From Chiloscyllium plagiosum (taxonomy: Eukaryota), in NCBI RefSeq assembly GCF_004010195.1, contig NC_057718.1:105634907-105654906 (forward strand): a DNA stretch of 20,000 nt, given 5' to 3'. Each line of letters begins with the position of its first letter. Positions within the stretch are counted from its first letter, which is position 1. Positions 147 through 19,680 of the stretch are shown piece by piece. The notes under the pieces were generated by a model. That model searched no databases and was not told the origin of the DNA. It saw only the letters and a program-made list of their open reading frames with translations. Made by a program: the position numbers and the translations under genes.

Positions 147-282
147 GGAGAAAATTACTGCAGATGCGGGAATCTGTATGAAAACAACAAATTGTGGAGA
201 TCACAGTAGGTCAGACAGCATCCATGGAGAGAAAGCGAGCTAATGTTTTGAGTGTAGATGACTTTTCATCAGAGCTGAAGTG
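147..282 (-). mobile_element. Penelope-like element terminal repeat (pLTR) fragment with decayed hammerhead motif (238-276)
   Basis: Minus strand reads AGCT-CTGATGA-A-AAGTC-ATCTA-CACTC-AAAA-CATT-AGCT followed by ...GGATGCTGTCTGACCTACTGTGATCTCC..., the same layout as the other pLTR copies in the window. Confidence 0.7.
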
Positions 283-522
283 ATATTGTCTATCTGCTCA
301 GCTTTGAAAACAATTTCTCTCATCTTTTCCCCTTTTCTTTATTCATTCTATACTATCTGTCTCTGTCTGCTGTAGAAGATAGAACATTAAGCGCAGTACA
401 GGCCCTTCAGCCCTCGATGCTGCGCTGGCCTGTGAAACCAATCTGAAGCCCATCTAACTTACACAATTCCATTCGCATCCATATGTTTGTCCAACGACTA
501 TTTAAATGCCCTTAAAGTTGGC

Positions 523-632
523 TAGGAGAAAGTGAGGACTGCAGATATTCATTAGGAAGCCCAAACTGTCGATTCTCCTGCTCCTCAGATGCTGCCCTGA
601 CCTGCTGTGCATTTGCAGCACCACACACTCGA
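523..632. mobile_element. Short rearranged Penelope pLTR insertion inside the CR1 3' end
   Basis: TAGGAGAAAGTGAGGACTGCAGAT (pLTR end, minus orientation) is joined to GTCGATTCTCCTGCTCCTCAGATGCTGCC... (plus orientation). Flanked by a 12-bp direct repeat CTTAA(A/C)GTTGGC at 511-522 and 633-644. Confidence 0.75.
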
Positions 633-1668
633 CTTAACGTTGGCGGGCCTATGATTGTTACAGGCAGGGTGTTCCATGCCCCTACTACTCTCCAAGTAAA
701 AAATCTACTTCTGACATCTGTCCTATATCTATCATCCCTCAATTTAAAGCTATAACTCCTCGTGCTAGCCATCACCATCCGAGGAAAATGCTCTCACTGT
801 CAACCTGATCTAATCTTCTGATCATCTCGTATGTCTCTATTAAGTCACCTCTCAACCTTCTTCTCTGTAATGAAAACAGCCTAAAGTCCCTCAGCCTTTC
901 CTCATAAGACTTTTCTCCATACCAGGCAACAGTCTAGTAAATCTCCTCTGAATCCTTTCCAAAGCTTTCACATCCTTCCTAAAATGTGGTGGCCAGAACT
1001 GTACACAATACTCAAAGTGCGGCTGCACCAGATGTTTGTACACCTGCAACATGACCTCATAGTTCTGAAACTCAATCCTTCTACCTAAACGAGCTAACAC
1101 ACCATATGCCTTCTTAACAACCCTATCAGCCTGGGTGGCAACTTTCAAGAATCTATGCACACCGAGATCTCTCTGTTCATAGCCCAGTATTCTGTATTAG
1201 TGTTACTCATTCTAAAGTGAATCACCTCACACTTTTCCACATTAAACTCCATTTGCCACCTCTCAGCCCAGCTCTGCAGCTTATCTATGCCCCTCTGTAA
1301 CCTGCAACATCCTTCTGCACTGTCCACAAAGCGTCACCTGCAAATTTACTAACCCATCCTTCTACGCCACTTTAACACCCCACCCTAAACAATGGTGGAC
1401 CCAAAACAGATCCTTGCGGTACCCCACTAGTAAATGAACTCCGGGATGAGCATTTCCCAACAACCACCACCCTCTGTCTTCTTACAGCTAGCCAATTTCT
1501 GACCCAAACCACTACATCACTCTGAGTCCCATGCCTCTGTATTTTCTGCAACAGCCCACCATGGGGAACCTTATCAAACGCCTTACTGAAATCCATATAT
1601 ACCACATCAACCGCTTTACCCTCATCCACCTATTTGGTCACCTTCTCAAAGAACTCAACAAAGTTTGT

Positions 1669-1982
1669 GGGTGGCACAGTAGCACAGTGGTTAGCACTGC
1701 TGCCTCACAGCGCTTGAGACCCGGGTTCAATTCCCGCCTCAGGCAACTGACTGTGTGGAGTTTGCACATTCTCCCCGTGTCTGCGTGGGTTTCCTCCGGG
1801 TGCTCCGGTTTCCTCCCACAGTCCAAAGATGTGCAGGTTAGGTGAATTGACCATGCTAAATTGCTATAGTGTTAGGTAAGGGGTAAATGTAGGGGTATGG
1901 GTGGGTTGCGCTTCGGCGGGTCGGTGTGGACTTGTTGGGCTAAAGGGCCTGTTTCCACACTGTAATGTAATCTAAAAAAAAA
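1669..1982 (+). mobile_element. tRNA-derived V-SINE (HE1-like elasmobranch SINE), full length, inserted in CR1
   Basis: A-box-like TAGCACAGTGG, B-box GGTTCAATTCC, V-domain GTGTGGAGTTTGCACATTCTCCCCGTGTCTGCGTGGGTTTCCTCCGGG, CR1-like tail GGGCCTGTTTCCACACTGTAA..TCTAA(A)n. It splits the CR1 RT between the QHCFVK and LLSSLRR segments. Confidence 0.92.
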
Positions 1983-2959
1983 CCTACCTTCACAAAACAG
2001 TGCTGACTATTCCAAATCAAATTTTTCCTTTCTAGATGATTACAAATGCTATCTATTACAATCTGTTCCAAAACTTTGCCCACAACAGAAGTAAGGCTCA
2101 CTGGTCTATAATTACCAGGGTTGTCTTTACTCCCCTTCTTGAACAAGGGAACATTTGCTATCCTCCACCTTCCGGCACTATTCCTGTAGACAATGACGAC
2201 AATAAAGAGCAAAGCCAAAGGCTCTGCAATCTCTTCCCTCAATTCCCAGACAATCCTAGGATAAATCCCATTCAGCCCAAATGACTTATCCATTTTCACA
2301 CTTTCCAGAATTACTAACACCTCCTCCTAATAAGCCTCATCCCATCTACTCTAATAGCCTGTATCTCAGTATCTCCTCAACAACAGTCTTTTTCCTGCTT
2401 GAATACTGATGAAAAATATTCATTTAGAGCCTCCCCTATCACCTCTGACTCTATGCACAACTTCCCACTGCTGTCCTTGATTGGGCCTAATCTTACTCTA
2501 GTCATTCTATAGGTATGTCAGGACTAAAATAAAGTTTTAGGGTTTCCTTGATCCTATCTGCCAAAGACTTCTCACGTCCCCTCCTGGCTCTTCTTAGCTC
2601 TCTCTTTAGGTTCTTCCTGGCTAACCGTAACTCTCAAACACCCTAACTGAGACTTCACACCCTCATCTTTACATAAGCCTCCTTCTTCCTCTTGACAAGA
2701 GATTCAATTCTTTAGTAAACCATGGTTTCCTCACTCGACCATTTCCTGCCTGCCGGGCAGGTACGTACTTATCAACAACACACTGTAGCTGCTCCTTGAA
2801 CAAGCTCCACTTTCAATTGTGCCCATCCCCTGCAGTTTCCTTCCCCATCCTATGCATCGTAAATCTTGCCTAATCGCATCATAATTGCCTTTCCCATGCT
2901 ATAACTCTTGCAATATCTACCTATCCTTTTCCACCCGTAAAGTAAACACAATAAAAATG

Positions 2960-3030
2960 GTAGAACATAGAATATAGAAAAGTACAGACAGAACAGGCCT
3001 TTTGGCCCACGACGTGCCAAGGATTAATCC
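2960..3030 (-). mobile_element. Severely 5'-truncated CR1/SINE 3' tail nested in CR1
   Basis: TAGAACATAGAATATAGAAAAGTACAGACAGAACAGGCCTTTTGGCCCACGA resembles the CR1 3' terminus seen at 15410-15465. Confidence 0.7.
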
Positions 3031-3054
3031 TAAAAAATTGTGGTCACTATTACC

Positions 3055-3468
3055 TGCAACAACTATTTCTGTCCCTGCTCTATGTCTCCAAAATGGCTTT
3101 TCCAGCAACACATTTTTCAGCTCTGATCTCCAGCATCTGCAGTTCTCACTTTCTTCTAGTTGATTTTAACCTACTGCGAATCCTCTTGCAAGGACGCCTT
3201 CCTTGAAGAAGGTCTCTTCCTCCCTCTACAAGGATTTCAGTGAGTCCCTCTCTCACTGCACCCCCCAGGTCATCTCCTCTGCCCTGAAGCTCTTCAGCCA
3301 CGTCCTCAAATAGACTCGCTACCACAGCCACATCTCCATTCCTGAAGAAGGGCTTATGCCCAAAACATTGATTCTCCTGCTCCTTGGATGCTGCCTGACC
3401 TGCTGCACTTTTCCAGCAACACATTTTTCAGCTCTGATCTCCAGCATCTGCAGTCCTCATTTTCTCCT
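3055..3468 (+). mobile_element. Internally deleted Penelope-like insertion (partial pLTR + ORF 5' end + pLTR) with 9-bp TSD
   Basis: TSD ACTATTACC at 3046-3054 and 3469-3477. Direct repeat 3097-~3158 / 3408-3469. Decayed ORF start at 3194 (TPSLKKVSSSLYKDFSESLSHCTPQVISSALKLFSHVLK*TRYHSHIS). Decayed hammerhead at 3338-3373. Confidence 0.8.
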
Positions 3469-5068
3469 ACTATTACCAAAGTGCTCACTTACACTCAATT
3501 CTAACACCTGGCCTGGTTCATTATCCAGTACCAAATCCAATGTGGCCTTGCCTCTTGTTGGCCTATCTATATACTGTGTCAGGAAACCGTCCTGCACACA
3601 TTGGACAAAAACTGACCCATCTAAAGTACTTGAATGATAGCATCTCCAGTAAATTTAAGAAATTAAAGTCCCCCATAACAACTACCCTTTTTTTCTCACT
3701 TCTATCCAGAATCATCTTTGCAATCCTTTCCTCTGCATCTCTGGAACTTTTCAGAGGCCTATAGAAAACTCCCAACAGGGTGACCTCTCCTTTTCTGTTT
3801 CTAACCTCAGCCCACACTACCTCGCAGTCGAGTCCTCATCAAATGTCCTTTCTGCCACCGTAATACTGTCATTGACTAGCAATACCATATCTCCCCCTCC
3901 TACTGAAACATCTAAACCCCAGAACCTGCAACAACCATTTCTGTCCCTGCTCTATGTCTCCAAAATGGCTACAACATTGAAGTCCCAGGTATCAATCCAC
4001 GCTGCAGGTTCACCTACCTTATTCCAGATGCTCCTGGTTTTGAAGCAGACACTTTTCAAACCACCTTCCTGCTTGCCGGTACACTCTTGCGACCTTGGGA
4101 CCTTATTTATGACCTTACTACTCTCAATCTCCTGTACACTGGAACTACAATTCAGGTTCCCATCCTCCTGCTGAATTAGTTTAAACACTCCTGAAGAGCA
4201 TTAGCCAATTCCCCCACCCCCCAGGATATTGGTACCCCTCTGGTTCAGGTGTAGACCATCCTATTTGTAGATGTGCCACCCACCCCAAGTGCATTTAAGG
4301 GACACAAAAAGAAAGCTGGAGGTTCTTTAGCCAGAACCTGCATATATCTGAGCTGTTGTCATATTTAGAAGAAAGGTCCAAATTTCTTTTTGTGAGTGGT
4401 AGTGACTGACAATTCTAATCTTTTACATGTAAGATGGAATCCTAATTAAGCAATTTTATCTGTTTACATTGCAGATGTTCTGCAGAGACATAGAGTCTGT
4501 TGGTGATCAGAGATTAGCAGGTTGGATAAAAGATGGTGCCTGGAGTCCAGGAAATAACATCCGTGCATGATGTTTATCAGAAACGTTCCTACTTTAAGCA
4601 AGATTCTTCCTTCTCCCAAGTGCTTCAATTTCTAAGTCCAGTCTCCTACTGACCATTGATATCCTTCACCTTTTGCAGTAGCAGATGCTCCTGGGCAAAT
4701 CTCAACTCCTTTTACTGTATTACAGCAGCTAAAGTTCAAAGCAGCCACCTGTATTATGCCCCCAGTGACCAGGTATCGAAGGGTAAAGTCTGTCTGGATA
4801 TCTGTTCAGGCTGAGAATCTGTGCTGGCCCCAAACTGTTGGCCTGTAAAGATCTATCCAGCGAGTGTAGAAAATAACTATTCTCAAGAAATAGTTCTCAG
4901 AAAAGCACAAATGATTATATGGAAATTATCAGAAATAGATAAAAACATTGGATTAATGCTATTGGGTACATAATGCACACTGATATCCTCTGCCAGTACA
5001 TTTATTTGAAAATTAACAGATGATTAAATGGGAAGAAAGTACCAAATAAAAGATCAGGAGTATTCAAT

Positions 5069-5071
5069 TAT

Positions 5072-5102
<31 letters not shown>
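5069..5102. repeat. (TA)n microsatellite, one interruption
   Basis: TATATATATATATAATATATATATATATATATAT read directly. Confidence 0.95.
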
Positions 5103-6409
5103 GACTGAATACTCAAAGTGCCTTTACGTCTAGATGAACTAATGTGTAATATTAAAATATTTAAAAACAATTGCCCATTAGTTTAAAACAAATGCATTGT
5201 CTTTAATTGGGATACCTGGCTTGTAAACTGTAAAATTACAGTTTGCTTTCGACATTCTGTTCATACTTTTAATGACAGTGTGCAGACATTGAACAATTTA
5301 TACACAAACTTTAATACTTATGTAACTAGTACAAATATTTATTTGTCCTTATTTTTGATGGCATTATTAAATCACTGTCTGAAAAACTGTATTTTTTTCC
5401 ACCCAATTCACTATAATACTTTCGTGCCCTCTATAATATGCCCTTGTCGATTTTATTATATGGTGCAACCCTCCTCTTGGAATATCAACTATACTTCAAC
5501 AATACCGTTTAACATTATCACCCACCAAACAGCCTGTGTGTCTGAAATAGAATAGGTTTCATTTATGTAAGAAAAAATGAAGCTGGAGATAAAAGTTCCG
5601 ATTCTGAATTTATATCACAAGGAAGCAGAACACTTTAATCATACATTTTAACTGTAATCTTCAAATAATGCATTTCAAAGACTGTATGCAGTCTTGCATA
5701 AAAGCAAAGATTAACCAAACATACCTTTTAAAAGGAACAAAATTAGACTTAAACTTGCAGGTAAAATGAAATGCCACTTACCACTGCTTTCGGTTTTCAT
5801 TTGCGTTTTGCACCACAATTTTGCAACTGTAGGTTTTATTGACTATTTCAACCAGTATTTGGTTGTAAAATATGACATTTTTCTGTGCAGCACTCCCAAA
5901 TTTACAAACCTGATAAAGCATCAAATGTTGCCACTACAAACAATTCCTATTCTCACCTGCTTGTATTTATTTTATTGATACATTCTGCAATTTTGTGTTT
6001 TAAATTCATGACTTAATTACTCAATGCTTAAAAATGTTAAGTGTTCATCATGTAGAATGTCATTCTGTTTCTAGGTAACCCGACTCACTTATCTTGTGAG
6101 TAGCTGACCAGGAAAGGTTCAGTTTGAACCCCAACCTATGCAGTGTTACAGCAGGACATTGCACCCAGATTGGCCTCAGCAAATTCAACAGGATCCCTGC
6201 TTCTGATCAGCACCAATTGTGGAAAATGCATGTAAATTAATACACAGGAAGGCCAGGATTAAATTCGGCTGTGTCACCTTAATATATTGCTGCCATCCAC
6301 TGTCAAGGTTCACATCTGAATTATATCTGACTTGAGACCTTAACTGCATCTTTCCATAGAAGCCACCCAACTGGCTGAGCCATGTTGTCTCGAAGTAGTT
6401 AGTGACTGT

Positions 6410-6520
6410 GGACAAACAGGAGGCTGGAAGAACATAGCAAGCCAGGCAGCATCAGGAGGTGGAGAAGTCAACATTTTGAGTATTACCCCTTCTTCAGGAC
6501 TAAATGTGGGGGTGGGGGGC
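6410..6520 (-). mobile_element. Penelope-like pLTR fragment with decayed hammerhead (6466-6501)
   Basis: Minus strand: AGTC-CTGAAGA-AG-GGGT-AAT-ACTC-AAAA-TGTT-GACT then TCTCCACCTCCTGATGCTGCCTGGCTTGCTATGTTCTTCCAGC. Confidence 0.75.
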
Positions 6521-7042
6521 ACTACAATGACTGTGTTTTTCTGCGCAGGACCTGCTAAAGGTTAAATATCATACAGGCAAAAGGATTTAAATGCATTAAA
6601 ATTTGAAGAAAAGGAGTTCTTGCCTAACATCTTACACAACACAAAGTCCCTACATTTTTCAGGGAACATTGATGCCTAGTTTCTTCAACATCTTTGTTTT
6701 TACTGTGTCTGAGATATCGCTCCTGAGTAAAATTGCTGAGATCTATGGAGCTCCTTAGAGATACAGCCACCTGTTGCAGTCCCCTCTTTCTCTTAATGCT
6801 GTCTTACTCACTTGCCAGTAGAGGCAGTTCTGCTAGACCACACATGACTGCAGCCAAGCAATGAGAGTCAGCTAATAAAAATGTGACACAGAGATAACTC
6901 GCTGCTTAAACAAAGTGAACATTCCAGAGTGATAAACCACACAAGTTAATCAGCATGCTGAAATGAGAAACCAACAACTAACAGTGTAGTGATTTATTTA
7001 AATACTGTAAGTGAGGGCAATTTCTACCATCAAGCAGCCCTA

Positions 7043-7635
7043 GTCATAGAGATGTACAACACGGAAACAGACCCTTCGGTTCAACTCGTCCATGCTGACC
7101 AGATATCCTAACCTAATCTAGTCTGATTTGCCAGCACTTGGCCCAGATCTCTCTAAACCTTTCCTATTCATAAACCCATCCAGATGCCTTTTAAATGTTG
7201 TAATTGTACCAGCCTCCACCACTTACTTTGGCAGGTCATTCCATACACGCACCACTTTGTGTGAAAAAGTTGCTCCTTAGATCCATTTTAAATCTTTCCC
7301 ATCTCACCTTAAACCTATGCCCTCTAGTTCTGGACTCCCCAGCCCAGGGAAAATACCTTGTCTATTTATCCTATCCATGCCCCTCAGGATTTTACAAACC
7401 TCTTCAAGGTCACCCCTCAGTCTCAGAGGTAAAACAGCCCCAACCTATTCAGCTGCTCCCTTTAGCTCAAACCCTCCAATCCTGGCAACATCCTTGTAAA
7501 TCCTTTCCTAACCCTTTCAAGTTTCACAACATCCTTCTGATAGGAAGGTGACTAGAATTGCACACAATATTCCAAAAGTGGCCGAACCAATGCCCTGTAC
7601 AGCTGCAACGTGACCTCCCAACGCCTATATTCAGC
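7043..7635 (-). mobile_element. CR1 LINE 3' fragment (5'-truncated)
   Basis: 3' terminus GTCATAGAGATGTACAACACGGAAACAGACCCTTCGG. The minus strand encodes decayed ORF2 C-terminal motifs (LEYCVQF, RMLPGLEGLS) that parallel 376-1100. Confidence 0.9.
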
Positions 7636-7949
7636 ACATAGAGTGAAGTGTCAGGGCATTCTAAAATTGAAAACTGGCTCTGCAAGCAATACAAGATCCG
7701 CATTTAAATAAAACATTCCAATTTCTAAATGATTCCTGTATCCACTCCTGATGCAAACCTGTTCACCTAAGGCAATAAATCAAGCAGCAAACTCCTTAAT
7801 GACAAGGTTTCTATGCTTCCTGCCCACAAAAGTGTGGCCTGAGCAAGCCAGTTAACAGCCAAATGAACGACAACTGTGTACCAGATTCATAGCCCCATGT
7901 TTTGGGGAAATCAAATTTTAATAACATAAATAATTTAGTTTAAATCATT

Positions 7950-8070
7950 TTCTGTGGCTAAATGGGGAGTAGGGGAGAAATTGATAGTAATAAGAATGCA
8001 GAGTTTGTACAGCGGGTGGCAAAGATGATGACTTCAGATTTCTCCATTTTAACTGGAAATTGCAGCCATA
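7950..8070 (-). mobile_element. Ancient L2-like LINE fragment
   Basis: Minus strand TGCAATTTCCAGTTAAAATGGAGAAATCTGAAGTCATCATCTTT resembles the L2 RT motif NFLQLNxxKTEVIIF (frameshifted). Confidence 0.4.
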
Positions 8071-8622
8071 CGAATACTCAACATCAGACAAGTACAACAG
8101 TAGAGTGGATGCAAAAGACTGAAGTTAAATTATATTCTTTAAAATAAATGTTTGGAATTTTAATGGCTTAACAGCTTGGTGATGAACAGGGGTCTCTGTA
8201 ATACAACATTGACTATCCCACTGAAGTGGAAAATCTTGAAACTAGTGAGGCAGTTGGTTATTTTATATAAAAAGCTAATAGCATAAACCATGTCATGTTC
8301 CAGCCTGGGAAAAGCAGTTACAGACCTTTAGTTGAGGTACATTTCGTTGTAATTCTCGAGAAAATCAGCCTTTCCAGAGCACACAGTTTGCAAGCATTTT
8401 AACAAAACCCTCTCCTCCATATCCCTGCCAAAAGGTGTAACATATTCTGATAGAATTTAACAACCTGCTCTCTGTTTGGAGAAGCAAAGAACTCAGATGC
8501 CACAAAAATTAAATTTAGGACATTCAATTACTCCATGTTAGCAATACAGTAACACGTTGCACGTGAAACACTATAACATTCCTAAAGTAGCTAGTTTCCA
8601 AAAAAGAGCTAATTAGGGACCA

Positions 8623-8720
8623 GAGCTGAAAATGTGTTGCTGGAAAAGCGCAGCAGGTCAGGCAGCATCCAGGGAACAGGAGAATCGACGTTTCGGGCAT
8701 AAGCCCTTCTTCAGGAATCC
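8623..8720 (-). mobile_element. 98-bp solo Penelope pLTR insertion with perfect 14-bp TSD
   Basis: CTAATTAGGGACCA at 8609-8622 and 8721-8734. The interior is the reverse complement of the pLTR at 3338-3436. Confidence 0.9.
8682..8719 (-). ncRNA. Type-I minimal hammerhead ribozyme motif, intact core
   Basis: Minus strand GAUUC-CUGAAGA-A-GGGC-UUAU-GCCC-GAA-ACGU-C/GAUUC. All conserved core nucleotides are present, with GUC cleavage triplet (cut predicted between 8687 and 8686) and palindromic ACGU stem III. Confidence 0.75.
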
Positions 8721-9067
8721 CTAATTAGGGACCAAAAAGGGGATTTCTGCACAAAGTCAGAGGGCTTGGATAAGGTACTGAATGAATACTTTCTGTCTTC
8801 ACTAAGAAAATAGACACTACCAAAGCCAGAGTGACATAAGGTCGTTGAAACACTGGACAGCTCAAAATTAATTAATAGAAAAGCCTGGCTGTACTTAAAT
8901 TTACCAAGATGAGAATATCTGAAACCAAGGATACTTGGGGAAATAAGTGTGCAAATTAGAGACACACTGATCATACCATATTGCAATCCTCCTTAGGTAC
9001 GGATGGTGCCAAAAGATGGGATAATTGCACTGTTACACCAGTGTTCAAAAGATTGGTTCAAGGACAG

Positions 9068-9146
9068 ATATTTTCTAATCAAATTGTTCAGAGATGCTAT
9101 TACATGCCTCTGAAGGATATGAACCTGGGTCACCTGGCTCAGAAGG
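9068..9146 (-). mobile_element. Short tRNA-derived SINE-like fragment nested in CR1
   Basis: Reverse complement CCTTCTGAGCCAGGTGACCCAGGTTCATATCC...AATAGCATCTCTGAACAATTTGATT is similar to 9465-9541. Confidence 0.55.
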
Positions 9147-9439
9147 ATTCAACGATAAGTTAAGCAACTACAGGCCAGTGAGTTTAACCTCCGTGGTGAG
9201 GAAAATTATATAAATGTGAATTAGAACAAAATTAATAGCCATTTAGATGAGTTGAATTAATTAAGGAAAACCAATTTGGATTTGTTAAGGACTAATTGCA
9301 CTTAAGTAACTTGATTGAGTTTAGTGATAAGCATCATGCTGTTGATCTGGTGCAGATGGTCTTCCAAAATGCATTTGAAAAAGAACTACATAACAGGTAA
9401 AATGAAACCTCATGGAATAAAACGGACATCAAAGGGATT

Positions 9440-9545
9440 CTTGTAGTGCTGTGGTAGTATCCCTACCTCTGAGCCAAGAGATCTGGGCTCAAGTCCCTCC
9501 TGTTCCAGACCTGCAAAATAACATCGCTGAACAAGTTGATTTATA
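9440..9545 (+). mobile_element. Short tRNA-derived SINE nested in CR1
   Basis: A-box-like TAGTGCTGTGGTAG and B-box-like GGGCTCAAGTCC. It interrupts the CR1 RT reading. Confidence 0.6.
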
Positions 9546-10674
9546 AAGTATCTAAATTGGACATTGGATGGAAACAAAACTATCTGAGTATTGGGAAACA
9601 GAGAGTAGTGGCAAATCATTGCTTTTGGGGCTGGAGGAAGATATGAAGTGGGATTCCCCAGGATCAGAATTGGGACCATCGTTTTTCTTTATCTATATTA
9701 AATGACCTGGACATTGTTGTGAAAAGCATAAATTCAAAGGTTGAGGATGACACAGAATTTGGAAGTATAGTGAACTACAAGTAGGACAGACAGAATTCAG
9801 GAGGACATAAGTTGGTGGAAAGGGCTGACAATAAGAAGAAATTCAGTGTAGTTGTGTAAAACAACAGCCTTTCAGGAAGAATGAAGGGAGGCAATATGTA
9901 ATAAAGGGTACAACACTAAATGGTGTGGAAGCAAAGGGAATTTGAGGTATATGTACATAAATCATTGAAGGTGACACAACAGGTTGAAACTATATTAATA
10001 AGTCACATGGGATGTTAAGTTTAATAAATAGAGGCATGCAGTACAAAAATAGAGATTATGATGAGCCTTTATCAAACATTCTTGGCATGACACTTTAGGA
10101 CAAATGTCAATGCACCAGAAAAGGTACAGAAAAGATTTACAAGTATGGCTCCAGGGATGAGAGACTTCAGTTTAAAGGATACATTGGAAAAGTTAGGGCA
10201 GCTGTCCTTAGAGAAGGCGAGAGGACCTTTGATAGAAGTATTCAAAATCATAAGTATTCTCAACAGACTACAATGGGAGAAACTGGTTCTCACTTGCCCA
10301 CCAATGGGAACAGAGGACACCGATTTTAGATGAATGGCAAAAGGACCAATGGCAACATGAGAATAAACTTTTCATGCGAAAGGTTGGGATCTGCAATGTA
10401 TCATCTGACAGTGTGGTGGAGGCAGGTTTGCTTGAGTGATTAGGGTCTGGAATGTACTGCCTGAGTGTGGTGAAGATAGATTCTATCAAAATTTTCAAAA
10501 TGGGACAAGATAATTATTTGAAGAAATAAAATGAAGGGCCTCAGAGAAAGTGTGCAATCAGACTAGCTGAATTGTACTTGCAGAGAGCCAGAAGAGACAT
10601 GACAGCCCAAATGTCTTCCTTTTATGTGGTAACTATTCTAAGATTTGATATCAAAGAACAGAAACCAACATATG

Positions 10675-10904
10675 TTTAGATCAGACTGGTGCTGGAAAAG
10701 CACAGCAGGTCAGGCAGCATCCAAGGAGCAGGATAATTGACGTTTTGGGCGTAAGCCCTTCATTAGGAATCATTCCTGACGAAGGGCTTTTGCCCGAAAC
10801 GTCGATTTTCCTGCTCCTCGGATGCTGCCTGACCTGCTGTGCTTTTCCAGCACCACTCTGATCTAAACTCTGGTTTCCATCATCTGCTGTCCTCACTTTT
10901 GCAT
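10675..10904. mobile_element. Palindromic (inverted) Penelope pLTR pair with 15-bp TSD
   Basis: TSD AGAAACCAACATATG at 10660-10674 and 10905-10919. The 96-bp inverted arms 10675-10770 and 10772-10867 are separated by 1 nt. Confidence 0.9.
10772..10809 (+). ncRNA. Type-I minimal hammerhead ribozyme motif, intact core
   Basis: AUUC-CUGACGA-A-GGGC-UUUU-GCCC-GAA-ACGU-C/GAUU. Cleavage predicted after 10803. Confidence 0.7.
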
Positions 10905-10965
10905 AGAAACCAACATATGCCAATATAAAACATGAAAGTTTTAATCTAAGATTGTTTAATGTATC

Positions 10966-11120
10966 ACATAGAATCATAGAGACGTACAGCATGGAAACAG
11001 ACCCTTTGGTCCAACCCGTCCATGTCAACCACATATCCCAACCCAATCTAGTCCCACCTGCCAGCACCCGGCCCATATCCCTCCAAACCCTTCCTATTCA
11101 TATACCATCGAAATGCCTTT
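10966..11120 (-). mobile_element. CR1 3' tail
   Basis: ATAGAATCATAGAGACGTACAGCATGGAAACAGACCCTTTGG... is collinear with 7043-7195. Confidence 0.85.
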
Positions 11121-11365
11121 TTCTCTCCTTCCTGCACTGACCTCACTATGTGCTTCCTTCGTCTGTTCTTCTCCCTTTTAAAACTGCTGTTGTTTTGATT
11201 TGTTTTTCCAAAGTTCCAAAACAATGCAACAGCATATAAAACAGTAATGACTGCTCCTGGAATTCGAGGAAATCACCTCCAACACCTAAAATATCTCAAA
11301 AAAAAGAGCAGCTGTTACAGATGGAAACTTTTCCTGTCCTCCATCTTGGATTACCCAGAATCCTT
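11121..11365 (-). mobile_element. Probable 5' end/UTR of a shark retroelement
   Basis: Minus strand begins GGATTCTGGGTAATCCAAGATGGAGG, which I recognise as a recurrent shark repeat start with a YY1-like CAAGATGG. Family assignment is from memory only. Confidence 0.4.
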
Positions 11366-11366
11366 T

Positions 11367-11548
11367 CTCTCCATGACACCGAACTCCTTTGTTCCGTGAG
11401 CATGATCTTAACCTCCACAACCACCTGGTGAAGGACCGGTACTCCGAAGCTAGTGCTTCCAAATAAACCTGTTGGACTATAACCTGGTGTTGTGAGAATT
11501 TTACCGTTGTCCACCCCAGTCCAAAGCCGGCACCTCCAAGTCATGGTA
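11367..11548 (+). mobile_element. Penelope-like pLTR, second major family, decayed hammerhead (11422-11455)
   Basis: CAC-CTGGTGA-A-GGACCGGTACTCC-GA-AGCT-A-GTG followed by CTTCCAAATAAACCTGTTGGACTATAACCTGGTGTTGTG. Confidence 0.7.
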
Positions 11549-12180
11549 ACCTAAATAGTAACTCACCCAATGTTTATTTATCAGCAAATGACTTTACAAC
11601 CTTAAAGAGTTTCAATGTAGCAGAATACTACGTTGTGCTTTACAAGTCATAAAACAGTGTCACTTCACACTTACAGTAAACAATGCCACAAGCTTTCTAT
11701 CAGTATTATTACCATGGCATGACTAAGATGATATGGCTGCTAATGAACATGGCTTCTGACATCAAAAGCAGTTTGAGTTCACGGAAAGGAACTGGTTGAA
11801 TGAAAGAAAGCAGCAGAGGGTGTAACGTAATGGAGGAGCTGGGGTGGAAGGTGTTAATAGGGAATGGAGTGCCCTAGGGCTTGGTGATGGGGTTCCTGCT
11901 GTTTCTGATCTACAGCAACAGTTTAAGACACAGAATCCTAATGTAAACTGATTATGTTTGCTGATGATACTAATTAGAGGGATTGGCTGTTGAAAGAGAT
12001 GAAGCACCCAGGGACCTAAAGTAGCAATTAGACAAAATGTGCAATTGGGATAATCAGTGGTAGATGAAATTTGATCAGCTAAATGCCAGCAAAATGCTTG
12101 GAACAAATAGAGTCAGCAATGTCATCAGAGGTCTGCTTCGATTTGACATTGTCCCAGTAACTGCAATGTAAAACTGTTAC

Positions 12181-12324
12181 CTCATTTAGCTGTTTGTTGC
12201 GAGTTGATATTACTGATTGGATAGCTGACTGTTTACTTCCTCCTTTTAAAGCTGCATCCCTCCTCGCCTGTTCCAGAAGGAGTCTTGCTCGCTCTTTCAG
12301 TTCTTCCTGTCTTGTTGCCATTCT
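12181..12324 (-). CDS. EHBP1: EH domain-binding protein 1, single internal coding exon (48 codons, phase 0/0)
   Basis: Translation RMATRQEELKERARLLLEQARRDAALKGGSKQSAIQSVISTRNKQLNE matches the vertebrate EHBP1 segment RLLSRQEELKERARVLLEQARRDAALKAG...RQLSD as I recall it. Acceptor ttttatctttaaacag| at 12325, donor GAG|gtaaca at 12180. Length 144 nt. Confidence 0.93.
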
Positions 12325-12849
12325 CTGTTTAAAGATAAAAATGTTAAATTCATTAAAACCTGTTTATTTTACACTGAACATATCAGTAAGTAATATTCTG
12401 TTTGCAGACATTATTATAAAAGTGTGACTGTATCATAAATAGCAAGAAATGCTAAAAACTAATATTGGGCAGATTTTCCCAGATAACCTCAATCATGGTT
12501 TTAGTTCAATTGCAAACTATTATGTATGCATTAAATCAACGAGATCATAATTATTTTTTCCACTTTTGGTTAATAACGGGACTACTAAAAACACCCTGTG
12601 AAAGACTTTGCAGTATAGAGGTATATGAATTAAAAATAACTGTCTCGCAATATGCTTCCACAACTGTGTTGCACTGAAAAAGGAAAGCAGATCTTGGATC
12701 ATCAAATGTTTCCACATTTGCATACTGAGGATTGACTAGCCAAGGATCGTTTACTGGGAGGAAAATAAAATCATATTTCATTTTTCTCCTATTCATCTAC
12801 AACAACCAGATACTGTTTATCATTCAAGGCTTGCGAATGTCACAAGCTA

Positions 12850-13385
12850 GATATTTATTGCTAATTACCCTCGAGGAGGTGTGGTGAGCTGTCCCTTGAA
12901 TCGCTGCACTCCATGTGCTGTAGGTGCACCCACAGTGTTACTCAGAAGGGACTTCCAGGATTTTGACCCAGTGACAGTGAAGGAACAGTAATGTATTTCC
13001 AAGTCAGGATGGTGAACTTGCACGAGATGGTTCTCCAATTCATGTGCTGCTCTTGTATTTCTCGTTAGATTTTGTCCATTTAGAATCTGCTGTCTATGGA
13101 GACTTAGTGGGTTGTGCACCCTGTAGATGGTACATGCTTGTGTCAATGTGAGTCAGTGATGGACAGAATGAATGTTAAAGGTGTTAGATGGGATGCCAAT
13201 CAAACAGGCTGCTTTTTTCTGGATGCTGTAAAGTTTCTGGAGTGTTGTTGGAACTGCACTCATCCAGCCAAGTGGTGAATATTCCATCACACTCCTGATT
13301 TGCACCTGGAGGATAGTATTTGGCAAGCAAGAGGCGAGCTATTCACTACATAATTACTAACCTCTAACGTTCTCTTGTAGAACAG
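12850..13385 (-). mobile_element. L2/Crack-like LINE 3' fragment
   Basis: Minus-strand remnants QIRSVMEYSPLGWMSAVPTTLQKLYSIQKKAACLIG and SFTVTGSKSWKSL, typical of the ORF2 C-terminus of CR1/L2-group LINEs. Ends in ...GCAATAAAT. Confidence 0.75.
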
Positions 13386-13407
13386 TACTTACATTTTAGT
13401 TTCTCTT

Positions 13408-13842
13408 CAATGGAGCACTTCAGCTATAAACAGAGGCTGCATAAGCTAGGGTTGTTTTCTTTAGATCATAAATGGTGGAAAGGCATCCTGATTGAAGTTT
13501 GTCAGATGATGAGGGGCATGGAAAGCATGAAGAGAAAGCGCTGCTCCCTCTAGTTGTATAGTCAATAACAAGCAGGCATAATTATAAGGTGAAAGGCAGG
13601 AGGTGTAATTGGGACTTGGGGAAATTCTTTTCAACCAGAGGGCAGGGGGAAGTTGAAATGCACTGCCAAGGATGGTAGTTGAGGTGGAAGACCTCACAAC
13701 CTTTAAAAGTACTTGGATGAGTACTTGGAAATGTCAAAACATTCAAGGCTACGGGCGCAGTGCTGGAAAGTGGGATTAGAGTAGATTTAAAGTAGATTTT
13801 GTTTGTACAGGTTTGATGGACCTCTTCCAAACTGTACAATTT
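13408..13842 (+). mobile_element. CR1 LINE 3' fragment
   Basis: MEHFSYKQRLHKLGLFSL, LIEVCQMMRG, FFSTRG..WNALP-like remnants and a CR1-like tail TGATGGACC..CTGTACAAT. Confidence 0.8.
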
Positions 13843-14224
13843 TGGAAAGTGAGACCAGTCCACAGGCATTGGCTTCAACGTCTGGTGGTTTCCCTCTACA
13901 CAGTCTACTTAAGAACTCATGAAGCAGCCTCACTGCCTTCCCAAGGTCCCCATGACTTATTTCGTCTCTTCAAGCTTCTTTTGCTCCACAATATATATAG
14001 TCGATGCACCACATAACAATACAGTCCAATTCTTGTCATCACTTTAGTGAATACAATTGCATATTGTCTATGGCTTTAATCTCCTATAATTGGATATCCA
14101 TACAGTCCACAGTATTGTAGTTATGGTTTAATCAGCATTTTCTGCTTTAGAACTTGTAAAAAAGAGTGTAATAATTGAGGGGGAACATTAATCTTCATCA
14201 AGACTGAATCAGAAGATGAGTTTT

Positions 14225-15380
14225 CAGATTGTTTTGAAGGAGCAATAATTTGTTGAACCAGCTGGGGGTGAAGCTACTTTGGAGATAGCATTGCACTATG
14301 AGGCAGATTAATTAGTAATCCCCTATCAAAACATCCATTAGCAGGGAGCAGAGAAAGATGATCATAAAATAACTGAATTCCACATGAAGTTGAAAAGCAA
14401 CATACTCCAAGTCAAACAAGAATGCAATGCAATGCAAATTGCACAGGTTCTGAGTGGATGCTGGCTAAGATTGATTGGGTTAATGGACTGAAACATATGG
14501 CAATAAACTAAGGCTGCAAATCATTCAAATGTCACCTCCGTGTGTTACAAAGAGCATGTAGGTGCTAAGTGGAAGGGCAAGTAATTAAAAGGCAATAGAA
14601 ATTTTACACAATCACTGTGTTCTGAGGAGAACAGAAATCAGAAAGGTAAAGGAACAACCTGCACTCAAATTAGATCAAAACAGATGGAATGTGTGACCAA
14701 CCAGCACTGCCGTTCATGCCCAAGTTCTGAAATGAATATGCTTAAGGAGCTAGAAGAACAAATTAATAAAGGAGTGGAAGGTGGCACATCCACTGGCGCA
14801 CACACACACTGCACACACAACATGGCAATGTCAGCAGTGAACGGACACATCTTGACACCTGTGGCAGTCACCTGACATCACTGAGACCGTCTGCATGCAC
14901 GGTGGCCATTATTGATCAAGACTGCTTTAGAAGCCAAAGGGACATGAAAATGTGGGGAAAAAGTAGAATGGGTAAACTAGCCAGAAAATAGAAACAAATT
15001 GTAAATGCTTTTACAAGTCTAGTAAATGGATTATAGCTAAAATAAATGCTGGTCCTTTAAAGGTATAGACAGCAAAAATTAAGAGTAGTAAGGAAATGGC
15101 AGTTATTCAACAAATATTGTGTCTGTCTTCAGGGTACAAGACAAGGAATATAACAGAAATAGAGAGTAACCTGTGGTCTTACAAGAGTGAGGGCCTTAAA
15201 GTAGCTAATATTAACAGAGAAAAAGTATTCAAGAAACATAGAGACTAAAATCTGAAAAATCCTCAGGTTCTGAAAGAAATACTGTATAGTGAAGTCACTG
15301 GGGAATCTTCATAGACTCGAGAATAGTCCAAGCAGATTGGAAGTAAATAAAGAAAGTAAATGTAACACTGCGACAGTAAA
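14225..15380 (+). mobile_element. Old CR1 ORF2 remnants (endonuclease end and linker), interrupted around 14530-14920
   Basis: GATGATCATAAAATAACTGAATTC (SDHNMIEF-like), GGTAAACTAGCCAGAAAATAGAAACAAATTGTAAATGCTTTTACAAG (KLARNIKTNCKxFYK-like), AAATATTGTGTCTGTCTTCA, VQADWK..VNVT. Confidence 0.7.
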
Positions 15381-15409
15381 GTCTTGCTGCTTGCTTGTCT
15401 GCCCTTTGT

Positions 15410-17691
15410 GAACATGGAACATAGAACAGTACAGCACAGAACAGGCTCTTCAGCCCACGATGTTGTGCCGACCACTGATCCTCATGTATGCACCCTCAAA
15501 TTTCTGTGACCATATGCATGTCCAATAGTCTCTTAAATGTCCCCAATGACCTTGCTTCCACAACTGCTGCTGGCAACGCATTCCATGCTCTCACAACTCT
15601 CTGTGTAACAAACCCACCTCTGACATCCCCTCTATACTTTCCTCCAACCAGCTTAAAACTATGACCCCTCGTGTTAGTCATTTCTGCCCTGGGAAATAGT
15701 CTCTGGCTATCGACTCTATCTTTGCCTCTGATTATCTTGTATACCTCAATTAGGTCCTCTCTCCTCCTCCTTTTCTCCAATGAAAACGTCCGAGCTCAGT
15801 CAACCTCTCTTCGTAAGATAAGCCCTCCATTCCAGGCAGCATCCTGGTAAACCTCCTCTGAACCTTCTCCAAAGCATCCACATCTTTCCTATAATAGGGC
15901 GACCAGAACTGAACGCAGTATTCCAAGTGCGGTCTGACCAAAGTTTTATAGAGCTGCAACAATATCTCACGACTCTTAAACTCAATCCCCTTGTTAATGA
16001 AAGCCAAAACACCATATGCTTTCTTAACAACCTTGTCCACTTGGGTGGCCATTTTAAGGGATCTATGTACCTGCACACCAAGATCTCTCTGTTCCTCCAC
16101 ACTGCCGAGAATCCTATCCTTAATCCTGTACTCAGCTTTCAAATTCGACCTTCCAAAATGCATCACCTCGCATTTATCCAGGTTGAACTCCATCTGCCAC
16201 CTCTCAGCCCATCTCTGCATCCTGTCAATGTCCCGCTGCAGCCTACAACAGTCCTCTATACTGTCAACGACACCTCCAACCTTTGTGTCGTCTGCATCCT
16301 TGCTTACCCAGCCTTCAATCCCCTCATACAAGTCATGAATAAAAATTACAATCCGTAGAGGCCCAAGGACGGAGCCCTGTGGAAAACCACTGACTTCCAG
16401 GCAGAATACTTTCCTTTTACTACCACTCGCTGTCTTCTGTTGGCCAGCCAATTTTGTATCCAGACAGCTAAGCTCCCCTGTATCCCATTCCTCCTGTCCT
16501 TCGGAATGAGCCTATCACGTGGAACCTTATTAAATGCCTTGCTGAATTCCATATACACCACATCCACAGCTCGACCCTCATCAACTTTTCTAGTCACACC
16601 CTCAAAGAACTCGATAAGGTTTGTGAGGCATGACCTGCCCCTCACAACGCCGTGTTAACTGCATTTAATCAAGCCATGCTCTTCCAGATGGTCATAAATC
16701 CTATCCCTCAGAATCCTTTCTAATACCTTGCAGACGACAGACGTGAAACTTACTGGTCTGTAATTGCCGGGGATTTCCCTATTTCCTTTCTTGAAGAGAG
16801 AAATTACCTCCAGTGGAGAGCAAGTATGCAAAGATCTTCGCAAGTGGTGAAGCAATTGCATTTCTCGTTTCCCAAAGCAGCCGAGGACAAATCTGGATCA
16901 GGCCTGGCGACTTGTCAATCTTAATGTTTAACAAAATTTTCAGCACATCAGCTTCCCCTATCTCTATTCATTCCAGCGTGCACACCTGCTCTTCAAAGGT
17001 TTCATTCACTACAAAGTTCGTTTCTTTCGTAAAGACAGAAGCAAAAATCTCATTTAGGGCTTCCCTTACCTCCTCAGACTCCACACACAAATTCCCTATG
17101 CTATCCCAGATCGGCCCTACTCTTTCTTTGACCATTCTTTTATTCCTCACATAAGTGTAAAATGCCTTTGTGTTCTCCCTAATCCGTTCTGCCAAGCCTT
17201 TCTCGTGGCCCCTCCTGGCTCTCCTCAGACCATTTTTGGTCCTTCCTCGTCTGCCTGTAATCCTCTAGAGCTGAGCTTGACCCTAGCTTTCTCCACCTTA
17301 TGTAAGCTACCTTTTTCCTTTTGACAAGAAGCTCCACTGCTCTCGTCATCCAAGGTTCCTTTATCTTACCCCTTCTTGCCTGTCTCCGAGGGACATATTT
17401 ATTCATCACTTGCAACAACTGTTCCTTAAACAATCTCCACATGTCTATAGTGCCTTTACTATGGAACAATTACTCCCAATCCATGCTTCCTAACTCATCT
17501 CTAATCGCGTCATAGTTTCCTCTTCCCCAATTAAATATCCTCCCATTTTGCCTATTCCTCTTCTTCTCCATAGATATGTGAGGCAGTTGTGGTTACTATC
17601 TCCAAAATGCTCTCCCACCACAAGATCTGAGACCTGCCCCGGCTCGTTTCCGAGCACCAAGTCTAGAATGGCCTCTCTCCTCGTCGGCCTG
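15410..17691 (-). mobile_element. CR1 LINE ORF2, 5'-truncated, moderately young, small internal deletions
   Basis: AILDLVLGNEPGQV, GEHFGDSNHN, PWMT, NYRPVSFTSVVCK, GRSCLTNLIEFF, YMEFSKAFNKVP, PQGSVLGP, KDADDTK (YADD-like), RPHLEYCVQFWSP, AWNALP. 3' terminus GAACATGGAACATAGAACAGTACAGC. Confidence 0.96.
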
Positions 17692-18240
17692 AAGTTGTGT
17701 ATCTGCACAATACTCACTGTATATCTTTTCACTAACTGTAAATGTATATTTCTATACATGGTTTTAAAGAAATAGTAAGAAAAATCTTAATTCCTGCATC
17801 ATGTATTTCACAGATCTAGAGTGCCATGTTCACTATTTACAAAATTCACCATTCTTCAGGAATGCACTCCCTACAAACAGGGAGTGTCGACTGTATTTAA
17901 AGAAGGCAGGGACAACAAAAACAGGGAATTAGCTACAGGCTTGTTGGCCTGACAGTCACTGCAAAGACACATTAAAACAGTGCTATACAAAAGGTTTATG
18001 CACAAAGTAAAAACACAGTGAGTTGGGCTGGGGGTAATATAACAGTACGAATATTGATTAACCTTCGGAAACAAAGAGAATGGAAAAATTGAATATTTCC
18101 AAGCCGGCAGGTTGTCCTTCAAAGCTCTGCAATCTCATGTGACCTTTCATGCCAATATATGCACCATACCATTCAGTTTCAAAAACAGAAGTTGCTGGAA
18201 AAGCTCAGCACATCTAGCTGCATCTATAAAGAGAAATCAA

Positions 18241-18278
18241 AGTTAACATTTCGGGTCCAGTGACCCTTCCTCAGAATT
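18241..18278 (-). ncRNA. Type-I minimal hammerhead ribozyme motif, near-intact
   Basis: Minus strand AAUU-CUGAGGA-A-GGGUC-ACUG-GACCC-GAA-AUGU-U/AACU. Core intact, stem III ACGU>AUGU, one stem I mismatch. Confidence 0.65.
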
Positions 18279-18676
18279 GATGACAGCTAGGAAAATGTTG
18301 GTTTATATGCAGAAGAAAGGGGGAGGGGGGAGGTTTAAGATCTGGCTGGAAGGCTGAATAGCTGTTAATGGAGACTGTTAATGGTTAACAATAGGTAGTA
18401 TGTAATGGCAGACTATGTGTTAACAAGGCCTGGTATGGGCTAGGGGGCTAGGACATGAGGGAGTTCAGGCCCTAAAATTATTGAACTTGATATTGAGTCC
18501 TGAAGGCTATAGGGTTCCCGCGCAGAAAATGAGGTGTTGTTCTTCCAGCTTGTGCTGAGCTTCACTGGAGCACTGCAGCAAGCGTGAGACAGAGATGTTG
18601 GCCAGGGAACAGCGTAGTGTGTTAAGGTGGCAAGCAACTGGAAACTCAGAATCTTTTTTTGAAGGCAGAACTTAGA

Positions 18677-18991
18677 TTTTTTTTAGATTAGATTCCCTAC
18701 AGTGTGGAAACAGGCCCTTCGGCCCAACAAGGTCCACACCGACCCTCCGAAGAGTAACCCACCCAGACCCATTTCCCTCTGACAAATGCACCTAGCACTA
18801 TGGGCACTTTAGCATGGCCAATTCACCTGACCTGCACATTTTTGGACTGAGGGAGGAAACCAGAGCACACAGAGGAAACCCACGCAAACACGGGGAGAAT
18901 GTGCAAACTCCACACAGTCACCCAAGGGTGGACTCGAACCTGGGACCCTGGTGCTGTGAGGCAGCAGTGCTGACCACTGAGCCACCGTGCA
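18677..18991 (-). mobile_element. HE1-like V-SINE
   Basis: Reverse complement has tRNA head TGGCTCAGTGG..GGTTCGAGTCC, V-domain and (TCTAA)n(A)n tail. Confidence 0.93.
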
Positions 18992-19109
18992 TTTTGTGAA
19001 GTGGTCACCCAGTCTACACTTCGTTTCCCCAAAATAGAGGAGACCACACTGTGAGCAGCAAATGCAGTAGACTAGATTGTGAGAACTGAAGGTAAAGTTC
19101 TGCCTCACC

Positions 19110-19417
19110 TGCACGGTGGCTCAGTGGTTAGCACTGCTGCCTCACAGCACCAGGGTCCCATGTTCGATTCCAACCTCGGGTGACTGTCTGTGTGGAGTTT
19201 GCGCATTCTTCCCGTGTCTGCGTGGGTTTCCTCCCACAGTCCAAAGCTGTGCAGGTCAGGTGAATTGGCCATGCTAAAGTGCCCATAGTGCTAGGTGCAT
19301 TTGTCAGAGGGAAATGGGTCTGGGTGGGTTACTCTTCGGAGGGTCGGTGTGGACTGGTTGGGCTGAAGGGCCTGTTTCCACACTGTAAGGAATCTAATCT
19401 AACTTAATCTAAAAAAA
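19110..19417 (+). mobile_element. HE1-like V-SINE
   Basis: TGGCTCAGTGGTTAG A-box, TGTTCGATTCC B-box, V-domain with an internal deletion between GGTTTCCTCC repeats, AATCTAATCTAA tail. Confidence 0.93.
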
Positions 19418-19680
19418 TGTTTGGGGCCTTGGATACTGAGGAGGGAGGAGGTAAATGGGCAGGTGTAACAACTTCAGGGGTTGCAAGGGAAGGTGCTGTG
19501 GGGGGTTGGGATTGGGTGGGCAGTTTGTGTTGTGGTGTAGTCAGTGAAGGAAGAGTGGACCAGTGTCCTGGAGGGAATGATCCACATGGAAGGCGAACAC
19601 GGAAGGGGAAGGGAATACATGTCTGGTGGTGGCATTTCGCTGGCAGTGGCAGAAATGGCGGTTGATGATCTTCTGGATGG

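What the first reader, a model, noticed from the sequence alone, without database searches (positions are those of the whole stretch)
238..18278. At least eight hammerhead ribozyme motifs from ~5 Penelope repeat families, with covarying helices, in EHBP1 introns
Seen: CUGANGA-(A)-stemII-GAAA-..UH motifs at 238-276(-), 3338-3373(+), 6466-6501(-), 8682-8719(-), 10733-10770(-), 10772-10809(+), 11422-11455(+), 18241-18278(-). Helix I differs between families yet stays paired (AGCU/AGCU, AGUC/GACU, CAC/GUG, AAUU/AACU, AUUC/GAUU). Stem II likewise varies (GGGC/GCCC, GGGUC/GACCC). Stem III is a loopless 4-nt palindrome (ACGU or AGCU) or a decayed version of it. All copies carry an extra A between A9 and G10.1. 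Established: Penelope-like elements carry minimal type-I hammerheads thought to cleave as dimers, and an extra A at this position occurs in the CChMVd viroid hammerhead. Inference: this density (~1 per 2.5 kb) implies a very large, mostly unannotated ribozyme load in this genome, inactivated mainly by CpG decay (CCCGAAA>CCCAAAA, ACGU>ACAU/AUGU).
Basis: partly seen in the sequence, partly recalled or inferred. Interest (0 to 1): 0.75.

Follow-up and report, generated by a model that had tools for sequence, protein, structure and literature searches.

The report
Penelope retroelement stubs with minimal hammerheads
The eight motifs are real but mostly decayed copies of a small self-cutting-RNA motif already known from Penelope-type jumping genes, present about 300,000 times with an intact core in this genome, and the way the short copies end suggests they were likely copied from the capped front of an uncut RNA rather than acting as working ribozymes in the host gene.

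Summary
All eight motifs are at the stated places. They are minimal type-I hammerheads in the terminal repeats (pLTRs) of five Penelope-like element (PLE) families, the kind described by Cervera and De la Pena (2014). Only 3 of 8 keep an intact core, and 10733/10772 are one inverted insertion. A genome-wide core pattern gives 309,475 matches (control 1,470); sampling suggests about 0.8 million with decayed copies, against 4,000-9,000 reported for coelacanth and Xenopus by a stricter method. Helices covary between families. G12 decays as fast as other CpGs, and orientation across the EHBP1 region is unbiased (17 vs 16), so the copies look neutral. Short copies mostly begin at or near the ribozyme's first base, often after an extra G, and rarely at the cut site. 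Family B has a poly(A) signal 10 nt behind the cut, used in RNA reads. Likely mechanism: reverse transcription runs off the capped 5' end of uncut RNA. The scan has noted this model and the poly(A) signal before on other DNA of this and related genomes; I found neither in the papers searched. Cleavage is untested.

The parts
200..277 (-). Family E pLTR stub; decayed hammerhead 238-276 (G12>A, stem II broken)
   Evidence: other E copies lie about 420-450 nt downstream of a GIY-YIG ORF
512..624 (+).
3097..3469 (+). Family A compound copy: tail (3097-3158), 5' part of the PLE ORF (about 3160-3337), then hammerhead 3338-3373 (G12>A) with its tail; read as a template jump after run-off (inferred)
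6424..6501 (-). Family D pLTR stub; decayed hammerhead 6466-6501 (G12>A, stem II weakened)
8621..8720 (-). Family A solo stub of 100 nt with an intact hammerhead (8682-8719) at its very 5' end, preceded by two G not in the element; 12-nt target-site duplication; sense to EHBP1
10675..10903 (.). One family A insertion of two head-to-head arms: hammerheads 10733-10770 (-, G5>A, G12>A) and 10772-10809 (+, intact); tail on one arm only; target-site duplication of about 15 nt; predicted to fold as a 97-bp hairpin
11422..11455 (+). Family B hammerhead, decayed (A6>G, one A lost, stem II broken); antisense to EHBP1
11462..11482 (+). Family B poly(A) signal AATAAA (11462-11467) and the poly(A) addition positions (11479-11482) seen in RNA reads of the family, not shown for this copy
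12181..12324 (-). Host exon of 144 nt between AG and GT, likely EHBP1
   Evidence: sequence; gene identity from downstream bMERB exons
18201..18278 (-). Family C hammerhead 18241-18278 (core intact, stem III AUGU) and tail; A18278 is the predicted transcription start; sense to EHBP1
18302..18307 (-). TATAAA 29 nt upstream of the first base of the family C hammerhead (predicted promoter)
   Evidence: sequence
18420..19700 (-). 3' part of the broken PLE ORF that owns the family C hammerhead: Cys-rich linker, GIY-YIG domain (18992-19105), ORF end near 18470; interrupted by two SINE copies

Best explanation
These are the pLTR ends of five Penelope-like retrotransposon families, each carrying a minimal type-I hammerhead, and the genomic copies are mostly short dead stubs likely made when reverse transcription ran off the capped 5' end of an uncut element RNA. 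Shown: PLE origin, the motif anatomy, neutral decay, the pile-up of 5' ends at the ribozyme's first base, the extra G there, two preferred 3' ends, and poly(A) addition just behind the family B ribozyme. Inferred: transcription starts at the first base of helix I (TATA about 30 nt upstream in families B and C, initiator-like TCA-TT/TCA-GTT). The PLE protein nicks target DNA and primes inside the RNA 90-130 nt downstream, then copies back through the uncut ribozyme and adds a base opposite the cap. It then either joins to the target (solo stub), joins a second such copy made from the other target strand (head-to-head pair), or jumps to another RNA (compound copy, or a long copy). The ribozyme is under selection only in source elements. 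There it would cut slowly, as a dimer of the 5' and 3' pLTR copies or with help from the protein. Intronic stubs such as these likely do not cut the EHBP1 pre-mRNA.
For: GIY-YIG ORF ends followed by the matching family within 1.5 kb: B 5 of 5, G 7 of 7, A 14 of 25 hits (9 none), and for the window's GIY-YIG type 29 C, 6 A, 2 E, 1 B, 6 none of 44 (loci partly chosen by that protein). Across 11 family representatives helix II is paired at 43 of 44 positions and helix I at 39 of 44, against permutation means of 29.2 and 23.7; stem III is ACGU 7, AGCU 2, AUGU 2. G12>A occurs in 19/97 A, 12/48 B and 10/39 C copies; in A the rate (0.20) matches other CpG sites (0.17). Intact cores over 380 kb: 17 plus, 16 minus. 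5' ends of 114 tail-anchored A-type copies: 65 within -10..+14 of C3, 0 at the cut site; 3' ends 49 and 49 at two sites about 35 nt apart. Inverted arm adjacent in 26 of those 65 and 0 of 29 longer copies. Genome-wide, 8,259 copies have a non-C base before the first helix base; the first 100 rows give G 59, A 27, T 14 (hand tally). Before the cut site G:A is 17:32 (hand tally; Fisher P 1.6e-4). Poly(A) reads 56 + 167, and 260 reads extend 5' with an intact-ribozyme consensus; no genomic A-run there. Frangieh 2024: uncut RNA is the dominant substrate in vitro, with two internal start sites.
Against: No RNA 5' end was mapped: the reads laid showed no place where many molecules begin or end, so the start site rests on DNA junctions. 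Family A1 has no canonical TATA. The 5'-end tally mixes subfamilies and some family D copies, and an incomplete reference panel can mimic truncation; in the young A1 subset it is 13 of 24 within -12..+11 and none at +12..+50. Some G before +1 can come from the inverted arm; after dropping 20 palindromic and 4 point-mutant rows it is 44 of 76. The representatives were picked as intact-looking and are related, so the permutation P overstates. No family A poly(A) site was seen. Family D was not linked to an ORF. No gap-free full-length element was recovered. Cleavage was not tested.
Confidence: 0.75

Rival explanations
1. Same elements, but short copies stop near the ribozyme because the polymerase stalls or folds back there (self-priming on the local near-palindrome), not because the RNA begins there.
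For: Inverted junctions often use short homologies around the CUUC/GAAG near-palindrome; Arkhipova 2013 reads head-to-head palindromes as self-priming.
Against: Ends lie past the whole structure, not at its 3' base. Solo stubs with clean target-site duplications end at the same base (window 8621-8720). The extra G is concentrated at +1. Three families with different upstream sequence share the pile-up.
Confidence: 0.15
2. The stubs are an independently mobile, SINE- or retrozyme-like family that is cut out by its ribozyme, circularised and reinserted.
For: Enormous copy number relative to ORF-bearing copies (42,927 exact family A motifs against 95 tail-ORF junction matches for one subfamily pattern); retrozymes derive from PLE pLTRs.
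Against: No tandem arrays in the window; 0 of 114 copies start at the cut site; subfamily sequences match those attached to ORFs; stubs lack the upstream promoter and the ORF start that the anole protein needs.
Confidence: 0.05
3. Sense-oriented intact copies cut host pre-mRNAs (as trans dimers or with PLE protein) often enough to matter, making a genome-wide regulatory or mutational load.
For: About 300,000 intact cores; stubs are transcribed within host RNAs, 95% of laid reads run on into unlike sequence; the anole ribozyme is protein-assisted.
Against: No strand bias in the EHBP1 region (17 vs 16; all families 58 plus vs 65 minus); G12 not protected; monomers inactive in vitro; the hammerhead dimer fold is never the predicted minimum; the 10733/10772 pair folds into a hairpin.
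Confidence: 0.05

Closest known systems
Minimal hammerheads (min-HHR) in pLTRs of metazoan PLEs, Cervera and De la Pena 2014 (PMC4209133; parts 1-2 of 4 read, supplements not seen)
   Same: Type I fold, no loop III, palindromic 15.2-16.2, extra base between 9 and 10.1, G10.1-C11.1, several families per genome, mostly single dispersed motifs, opposite-strand pairs.
   Different: About 309,000 intact cores here against about 4,000 (coelacanth) and 9,000 (X. tropicalis), by a looser pattern; sharks are not named in the text I read; that paper proposes cut-and-circularise templates, whereas the stubs here carry the uncut ribozyme.
Poseidon element PAc of Anolis, Frangieh et al. 2024 (PMC11167929; parts 1-2 of 4 read)
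   Same: Two internal reverse-transcription start sites giving an optional 30-40 nt tail; both target strands cut and extended; uncut RNA is the substrate; no RNA-seq ends at the cut site.
   Different: The window's family C has a Neptune-type Cys linker; the paper does not describe 5' ends piling at the ribozyme's first base, an extra G, or a poly(A) signal behind the ribozyme.
Complex PLE insertions with inverted pLTR and tail (Arkhipova 2013, PMC3846280; Craig 2021, PMC8557442; passages read)
   Same: Head-to-head inverted copy, tail at one end, target-site duplications of about 8-15 nt, putative TATA and initiator in the pLTR.
   Different: Here most insertions are only 90-130 nt and both arms end at one shared position.
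Non-LTR retrozymes (Li et al. 2026, bioRxiv 10.64898/2026.07.22.740005; parts 1-3 of 5 read)
   Same: Type I hammerheads related to PLE pLTRs; reported in one chondrichthyan.
   Different: Retrozymes are defined as tandem arrays with a ribozyme per unit; the window copies are solitary or inverted.
Cap-derived untemplated G of full-length LINE-1 and SVA insertions (PMC4859970, passages read); R region and strong-stop DNA of LTR elements (recalled)
   Same: Extra G at the 5' junction; in family B the order TATA, start, repeat, poly(A) site, priming sites resembles U3-R-U5.
   Different: Priming is on nicked target DNA, not tRNA, and the repeat holds a hammerhead; the analogy is inferred.

Membership tests
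PLE min-HHR | Core CUGANGA...GAAA...UH | tested here: met
   Intact in 3 of 8 window copies and in family majorities; 309,475 genome-wide.
PLE min-HHR | Helices I and II with compensatory changes between families | tested here: met
   39/44 and 43/44 paired across 11 hand-picked representatives; U.U at pair 3 of helix I in family A.
PLE min-HHR | No helix III loop; palindromic 15.2-16.2 | tested here: met
   ACGU 45, AGCU 21, CpG-decay forms ACAU 15 and AUGU 15, other 6 of 102.
PLE min-HHR | Extra nucleotide between 9 and 10.1 | tested here: met
   A in 8 of 8 window copies; A 88, U 11, G 3 of 102 sampled.
PLE min-HHR | Self-cleavage as dimer or with protein | not testable with these tools
   Only folding energies; no cut-site ends in poly(A) RNA reads, a weak test.
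Endonuclease-positive PLE | RT plus C-terminal GIY-YIG ORF upstream of the pLTR | tested here: met
   GIY-YIG (Pfam E 0.0012, below the curated cut-off) upstream of A, B, C, E, G; RT motifs seen by eye in broken ORFs, no Pfam RT hit; D not linked.
Endonuclease-positive PLE | Inverted 5'-truncated copy and optional 30-40 nt tail | tested here: met
   Window 10675-10903; two 3' ends about 35 nt apart in 98 of 114 copies.
Neptune clade | Cys-rich linker between RT and EN, and placement in an RT tree | tested here: inconclusive
   C-x3-C-x2-C linker in family C ORFs including the window's; no tree built; linker not examined for A, B, D, E.
Non-LTR retrozyme | Tandem units each with a hammerhead | tested here: not met
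   No such array in the window.
Conserved host intronic hammerheads (RECK type) | Single-copy, canonical helix III, conserved sequence | tested here: not met
   High-copy repeats, no helix III, neutral decay; no Rfam hit.

The most novel reading that the evidence does not exclude
PLE pLTRs work like true LTRs: the hammerhead is the first 35 nt of a capped transcript and, in family B, lies inside an R-like repeat that ends at a poly(A) site upstream of the priming sites. Every insertion would then begin as a strong-stop cDNA from the 5' copy, and long copies need a jump to the 3' repeat. The roughly 0.8 million stubs would be a fossil record of that step at single-base resolution, and the family B stubs a large pool of portable poly(A) sites.
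Probability: 0.45. Interest if true: 0.7.

Novelty: new member of a known kind. Interest (0 to 1): 0.35.

Why it matters
The motif class is known, and these copies are most likely neutral fossils. Two things remain worth having. The count (about 309,000 intact cores) is well above the published figures I read, and Rfam misses all of it. The junctions also bear on an open question, how PLEs replicate and what their ribozyme is for: they favour uncut, capped RNA as template, in line with the 2024 in vitro work, and give exact start and poly(A) positions to test.

Tried and rejected
My first two descriptor scans were faulty (treated N literally; one search allowed no helix-I mismatch) and were replaced. 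A DNA search of the genome returned nothing because common words are skipped. The NT-C2 family search was blank with no positive control, and the Atlas gave no usable hit for the exon peptide. Long 'open frames' chosen for full-length elements were assembly gaps. Rfam scans found no hammerhead. No RNA holder was listed for the exon region. Run X21 laid 0 reads (no test), and one search showed no spliced EHBP1 joint. (8,618) undercounts untruncated copies because of its first degenerate letter, so I did not use it for a fraction. A cut-site hotspot: 49 of the first 100 rows begin at the cut, against 22 and 29 in the two neighbouring classes; about a third of the 49 are deletions, point changes or palindromes, so at most a weak excess. 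A dimer role for 10733/10772 was rejected: opposite strands, hairpin of about -169 kcal/mol. Lunse, Weinberg and Breaker 2017 is not held; I know it only from citing reviews.
Full report
Observation. All eight motifs are in the sequence as stated, with the extra A. A minimal-hammerhead descriptor finds 3 with a perfect core (8682-, 10772+, 18241-; 0 in 50 shuffles) and 5 with one core mismatch (shuffle mean 0.1). The copies at 238, 10733 and 11422 are too decayed for the descriptor but match their family profiles. The two at 10733 and 10772 are arms of one insertion, 10675-10903, between a target-site duplication; it folds into a 97-bp hairpin. A ninth copy at 558-617 has lost its core. Rfam reports no hammerhead in the window or in four other loci.

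Host. The window lies at G000:C9:105.63-105.65 Mb in a 3.56-Gb genome, by its repeats likely a cartilaginous fish (my inference; SINE labels recalled). Two bMERB exons lie 117-140 kb downstream on the minus strand and match EHBP1 chains in the PDB (E 3e-15 and 1e-20). The window has one clear exon, 12181-12324 (minus, AG/GT, 144 nt); its link to EHBP1 is inferred. Five motifs are therefore sense to the gene, two of them with intact cores.

What the repeats are. The 18241 motif sits at the end of a broken ORF with a Cys-rich linker and a GIY-YIG domain, which has 47,412 candidate relatives in the genome. In the loci held, GIY-YIG ends are followed by the matching ribozyme family: B 5 of 5, G 7 of 7, A 14 of 25, and C in 29 of 44 for the window's type. 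Family E follows such an ORF in two loci; D was not linked. These are pLTRs of endonuclease-positive PLEs. Cervera and De la Pena 2014 describe this motif, with the extra base, the palindrome and dispersed single copies, and report about 4,000 in coelacanth and 9,000 in Xenopus.

Load. An exact family A pattern has 42,927 matches, family B 4,990 and a strict family C pattern 299. A generic intact-core pattern without a pairing requirement has 309,475, against 1,470 for the reversed control. In 68 evenly picked 10-kb pieces (656 kb without N), profile searches found 158 copies covering the core and none in a shuffle; this scales to about 0.7-1.0 million. The methods differ from the 2014 ones, so the fold difference is approximate.

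Covariation and decay. Across 11 representatives helix II holds at 43 of 44 and helix I at 39 of 44 positions with several pair types, against permutation means of 29.2 and 23.7 (hand-picked, related copies). Family A keeps a U.U mismatch in helix I. Within families the pattern is decay. G12>A is found in 19/97 A, 12/48 B and 10/39 C copies, at the rate of other CpG sites, while the ten other core sites change at 2.5%, 5% and 9% per site. CpG loss is thus the largest single lesion but under half of core changes in A (19 of 43). Across 380 kb around the window intact cores are 17 plus and 16 minus; within the known gene span all families give 20 plus and 27 minus. Nothing here suggests selection for or against sense copies, though the numbers are small.

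How the stubs arise. Anchoring on the tail alone, 65 of 114 A-type copies begin within -10..+14 of C3, 29 further upstream, 20 downstream and none at the cut site; 98 end at one of two 3' positions about 35 nt apart. The latter matches the two internal start sites shown for the anole element. An inverted arm abuts 26 of the 65 and none of the 29. Genome-wide, 8,259 copies have a non-template base just before the first helix-I base, and it is G in 59 of the first 100 rows. One base earlier there are 3,575, many of them a subfamily variant. At or just after the cut site there are 696, 49 of the first 100 starting at the cut, with G:A 17:32 before it. Starts at +1 thus outnumber starts at the cut roughly 15-fold after allowing for the filters, and the G excess is significant. 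These tallies were made by hand from rows on contig C1 (C1-C4). An untemplated G is the accepted mark of a copied cap in LINE-1 and SVA. Families B and C have TATAAA about 30 nt before their pile-up, and 4 of the 5 listed B copies with a non-C base before that start have G. Among 30 copies holding the tail-ORF junction, many show an ORF fragment followed by a new ribozyme copy, two with an A-run at the joint, as in window 3097-3469; this fits jumps onto RNA 3' ends. I noted the run-off idea before seeing the scan's earlier notes; the extra-G and TATA tests were prompted by them.

RNA. In one poly(A) single-cell run with the species label of the best DNA holder (about 2% read), 2,747 reads lay on a family A element. 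Nearly all covered the stub region, on both strands, and 95% ran on into unlike sequence; no start or end pile-up was found. The stubs are read through inside host RNAs. For family B, 223 reads carry poly(A) 12-15 nt after AATAAA and 27-30 nt after the predicted cut, and 260 extend 5' with an intact-ribozyme consensus. The genome has no A-run there, and the hexamer is AATAAA in 28 and ATTAAA in 20 of 66 copies. By eye, B stubs end downstream of this site, so a transcript's 3' repeat would lack the priming sites, which is the logic of an LTR's R region (inferred). A poly(A) library would lose 5' cleavage products, so the lack of cut ends is weak evidence.

Literature. Seven searches gave no paper on shark PLE hammerhead counts, on 5' ends at the ribozyme's first base, or on a poly(A) signal behind it. 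Supplements of the 2014 paper and of the 2026 preprint, and the 2017 RNA Biology paper, were not seen and may bear on this. The scan itself holds 702 notes on the theme, including the cap run-off model and the poly(A) signal in this genome; these are unchecked AI notes, not support.

Verdict. Real motifs, known kind, neutral fossils in EHBP1 introns. The interest lies in the copy number and in the junction evidence on PLE replication, which still needs RNA 5'-end mapping and a cleavage assay.

Noticed in passing
window 3052-3098 and 3924-3970: A 47-nt piece of the surrounding LINE, from about 450 nt downstream of the insertion, is duplicated at the 5' junction of the PLE insertion, suggesting a templated capture of nearby DNA.
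   Followed up: no
window 18683-18991 and 19110-19410: Two SINE copies in opposite orientation flank the GIY-YIG fragment and form long inverted repeats of about 91%; could give double-stranded RNA in the pre-mRNA.
   Followed up: no
L067:2224-2947: Three family F hammerheads (U as extra base, longer stem II) within 750 nt, two in tandem 226 nt apart on one strand; the nearest thing to a retrozyme-like dimer in the sample.
   Followed up: no
L162 and L168, ORF-fragment junctions: Runs of 7-8 A between a 5' ORF fragment and the next ribozyme copy, as expected from a jump onto a short polyadenylated transcript.
   Followed up: partly
L063:9036 and relatives: A family A subfamily has restored the helix-I U.U to U-A and changed loop II, a natural pair for testing whether the mismatch tunes cleavage.
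   Followed up: partly
window 764-4314, 15400-17700, 19680-20000: CR1-type LINE fragments on the minus strand (RVT_1 hit at 15753-16511) host several of the insertions.
   Followed up: no
EHBP1 span, G000:C9:105.495-105.647 Mb: Family C copies are 9 sense against 3 antisense (19 vs 10 over 380 kb); small numbers, opposite to a purge.
   Followed up: no
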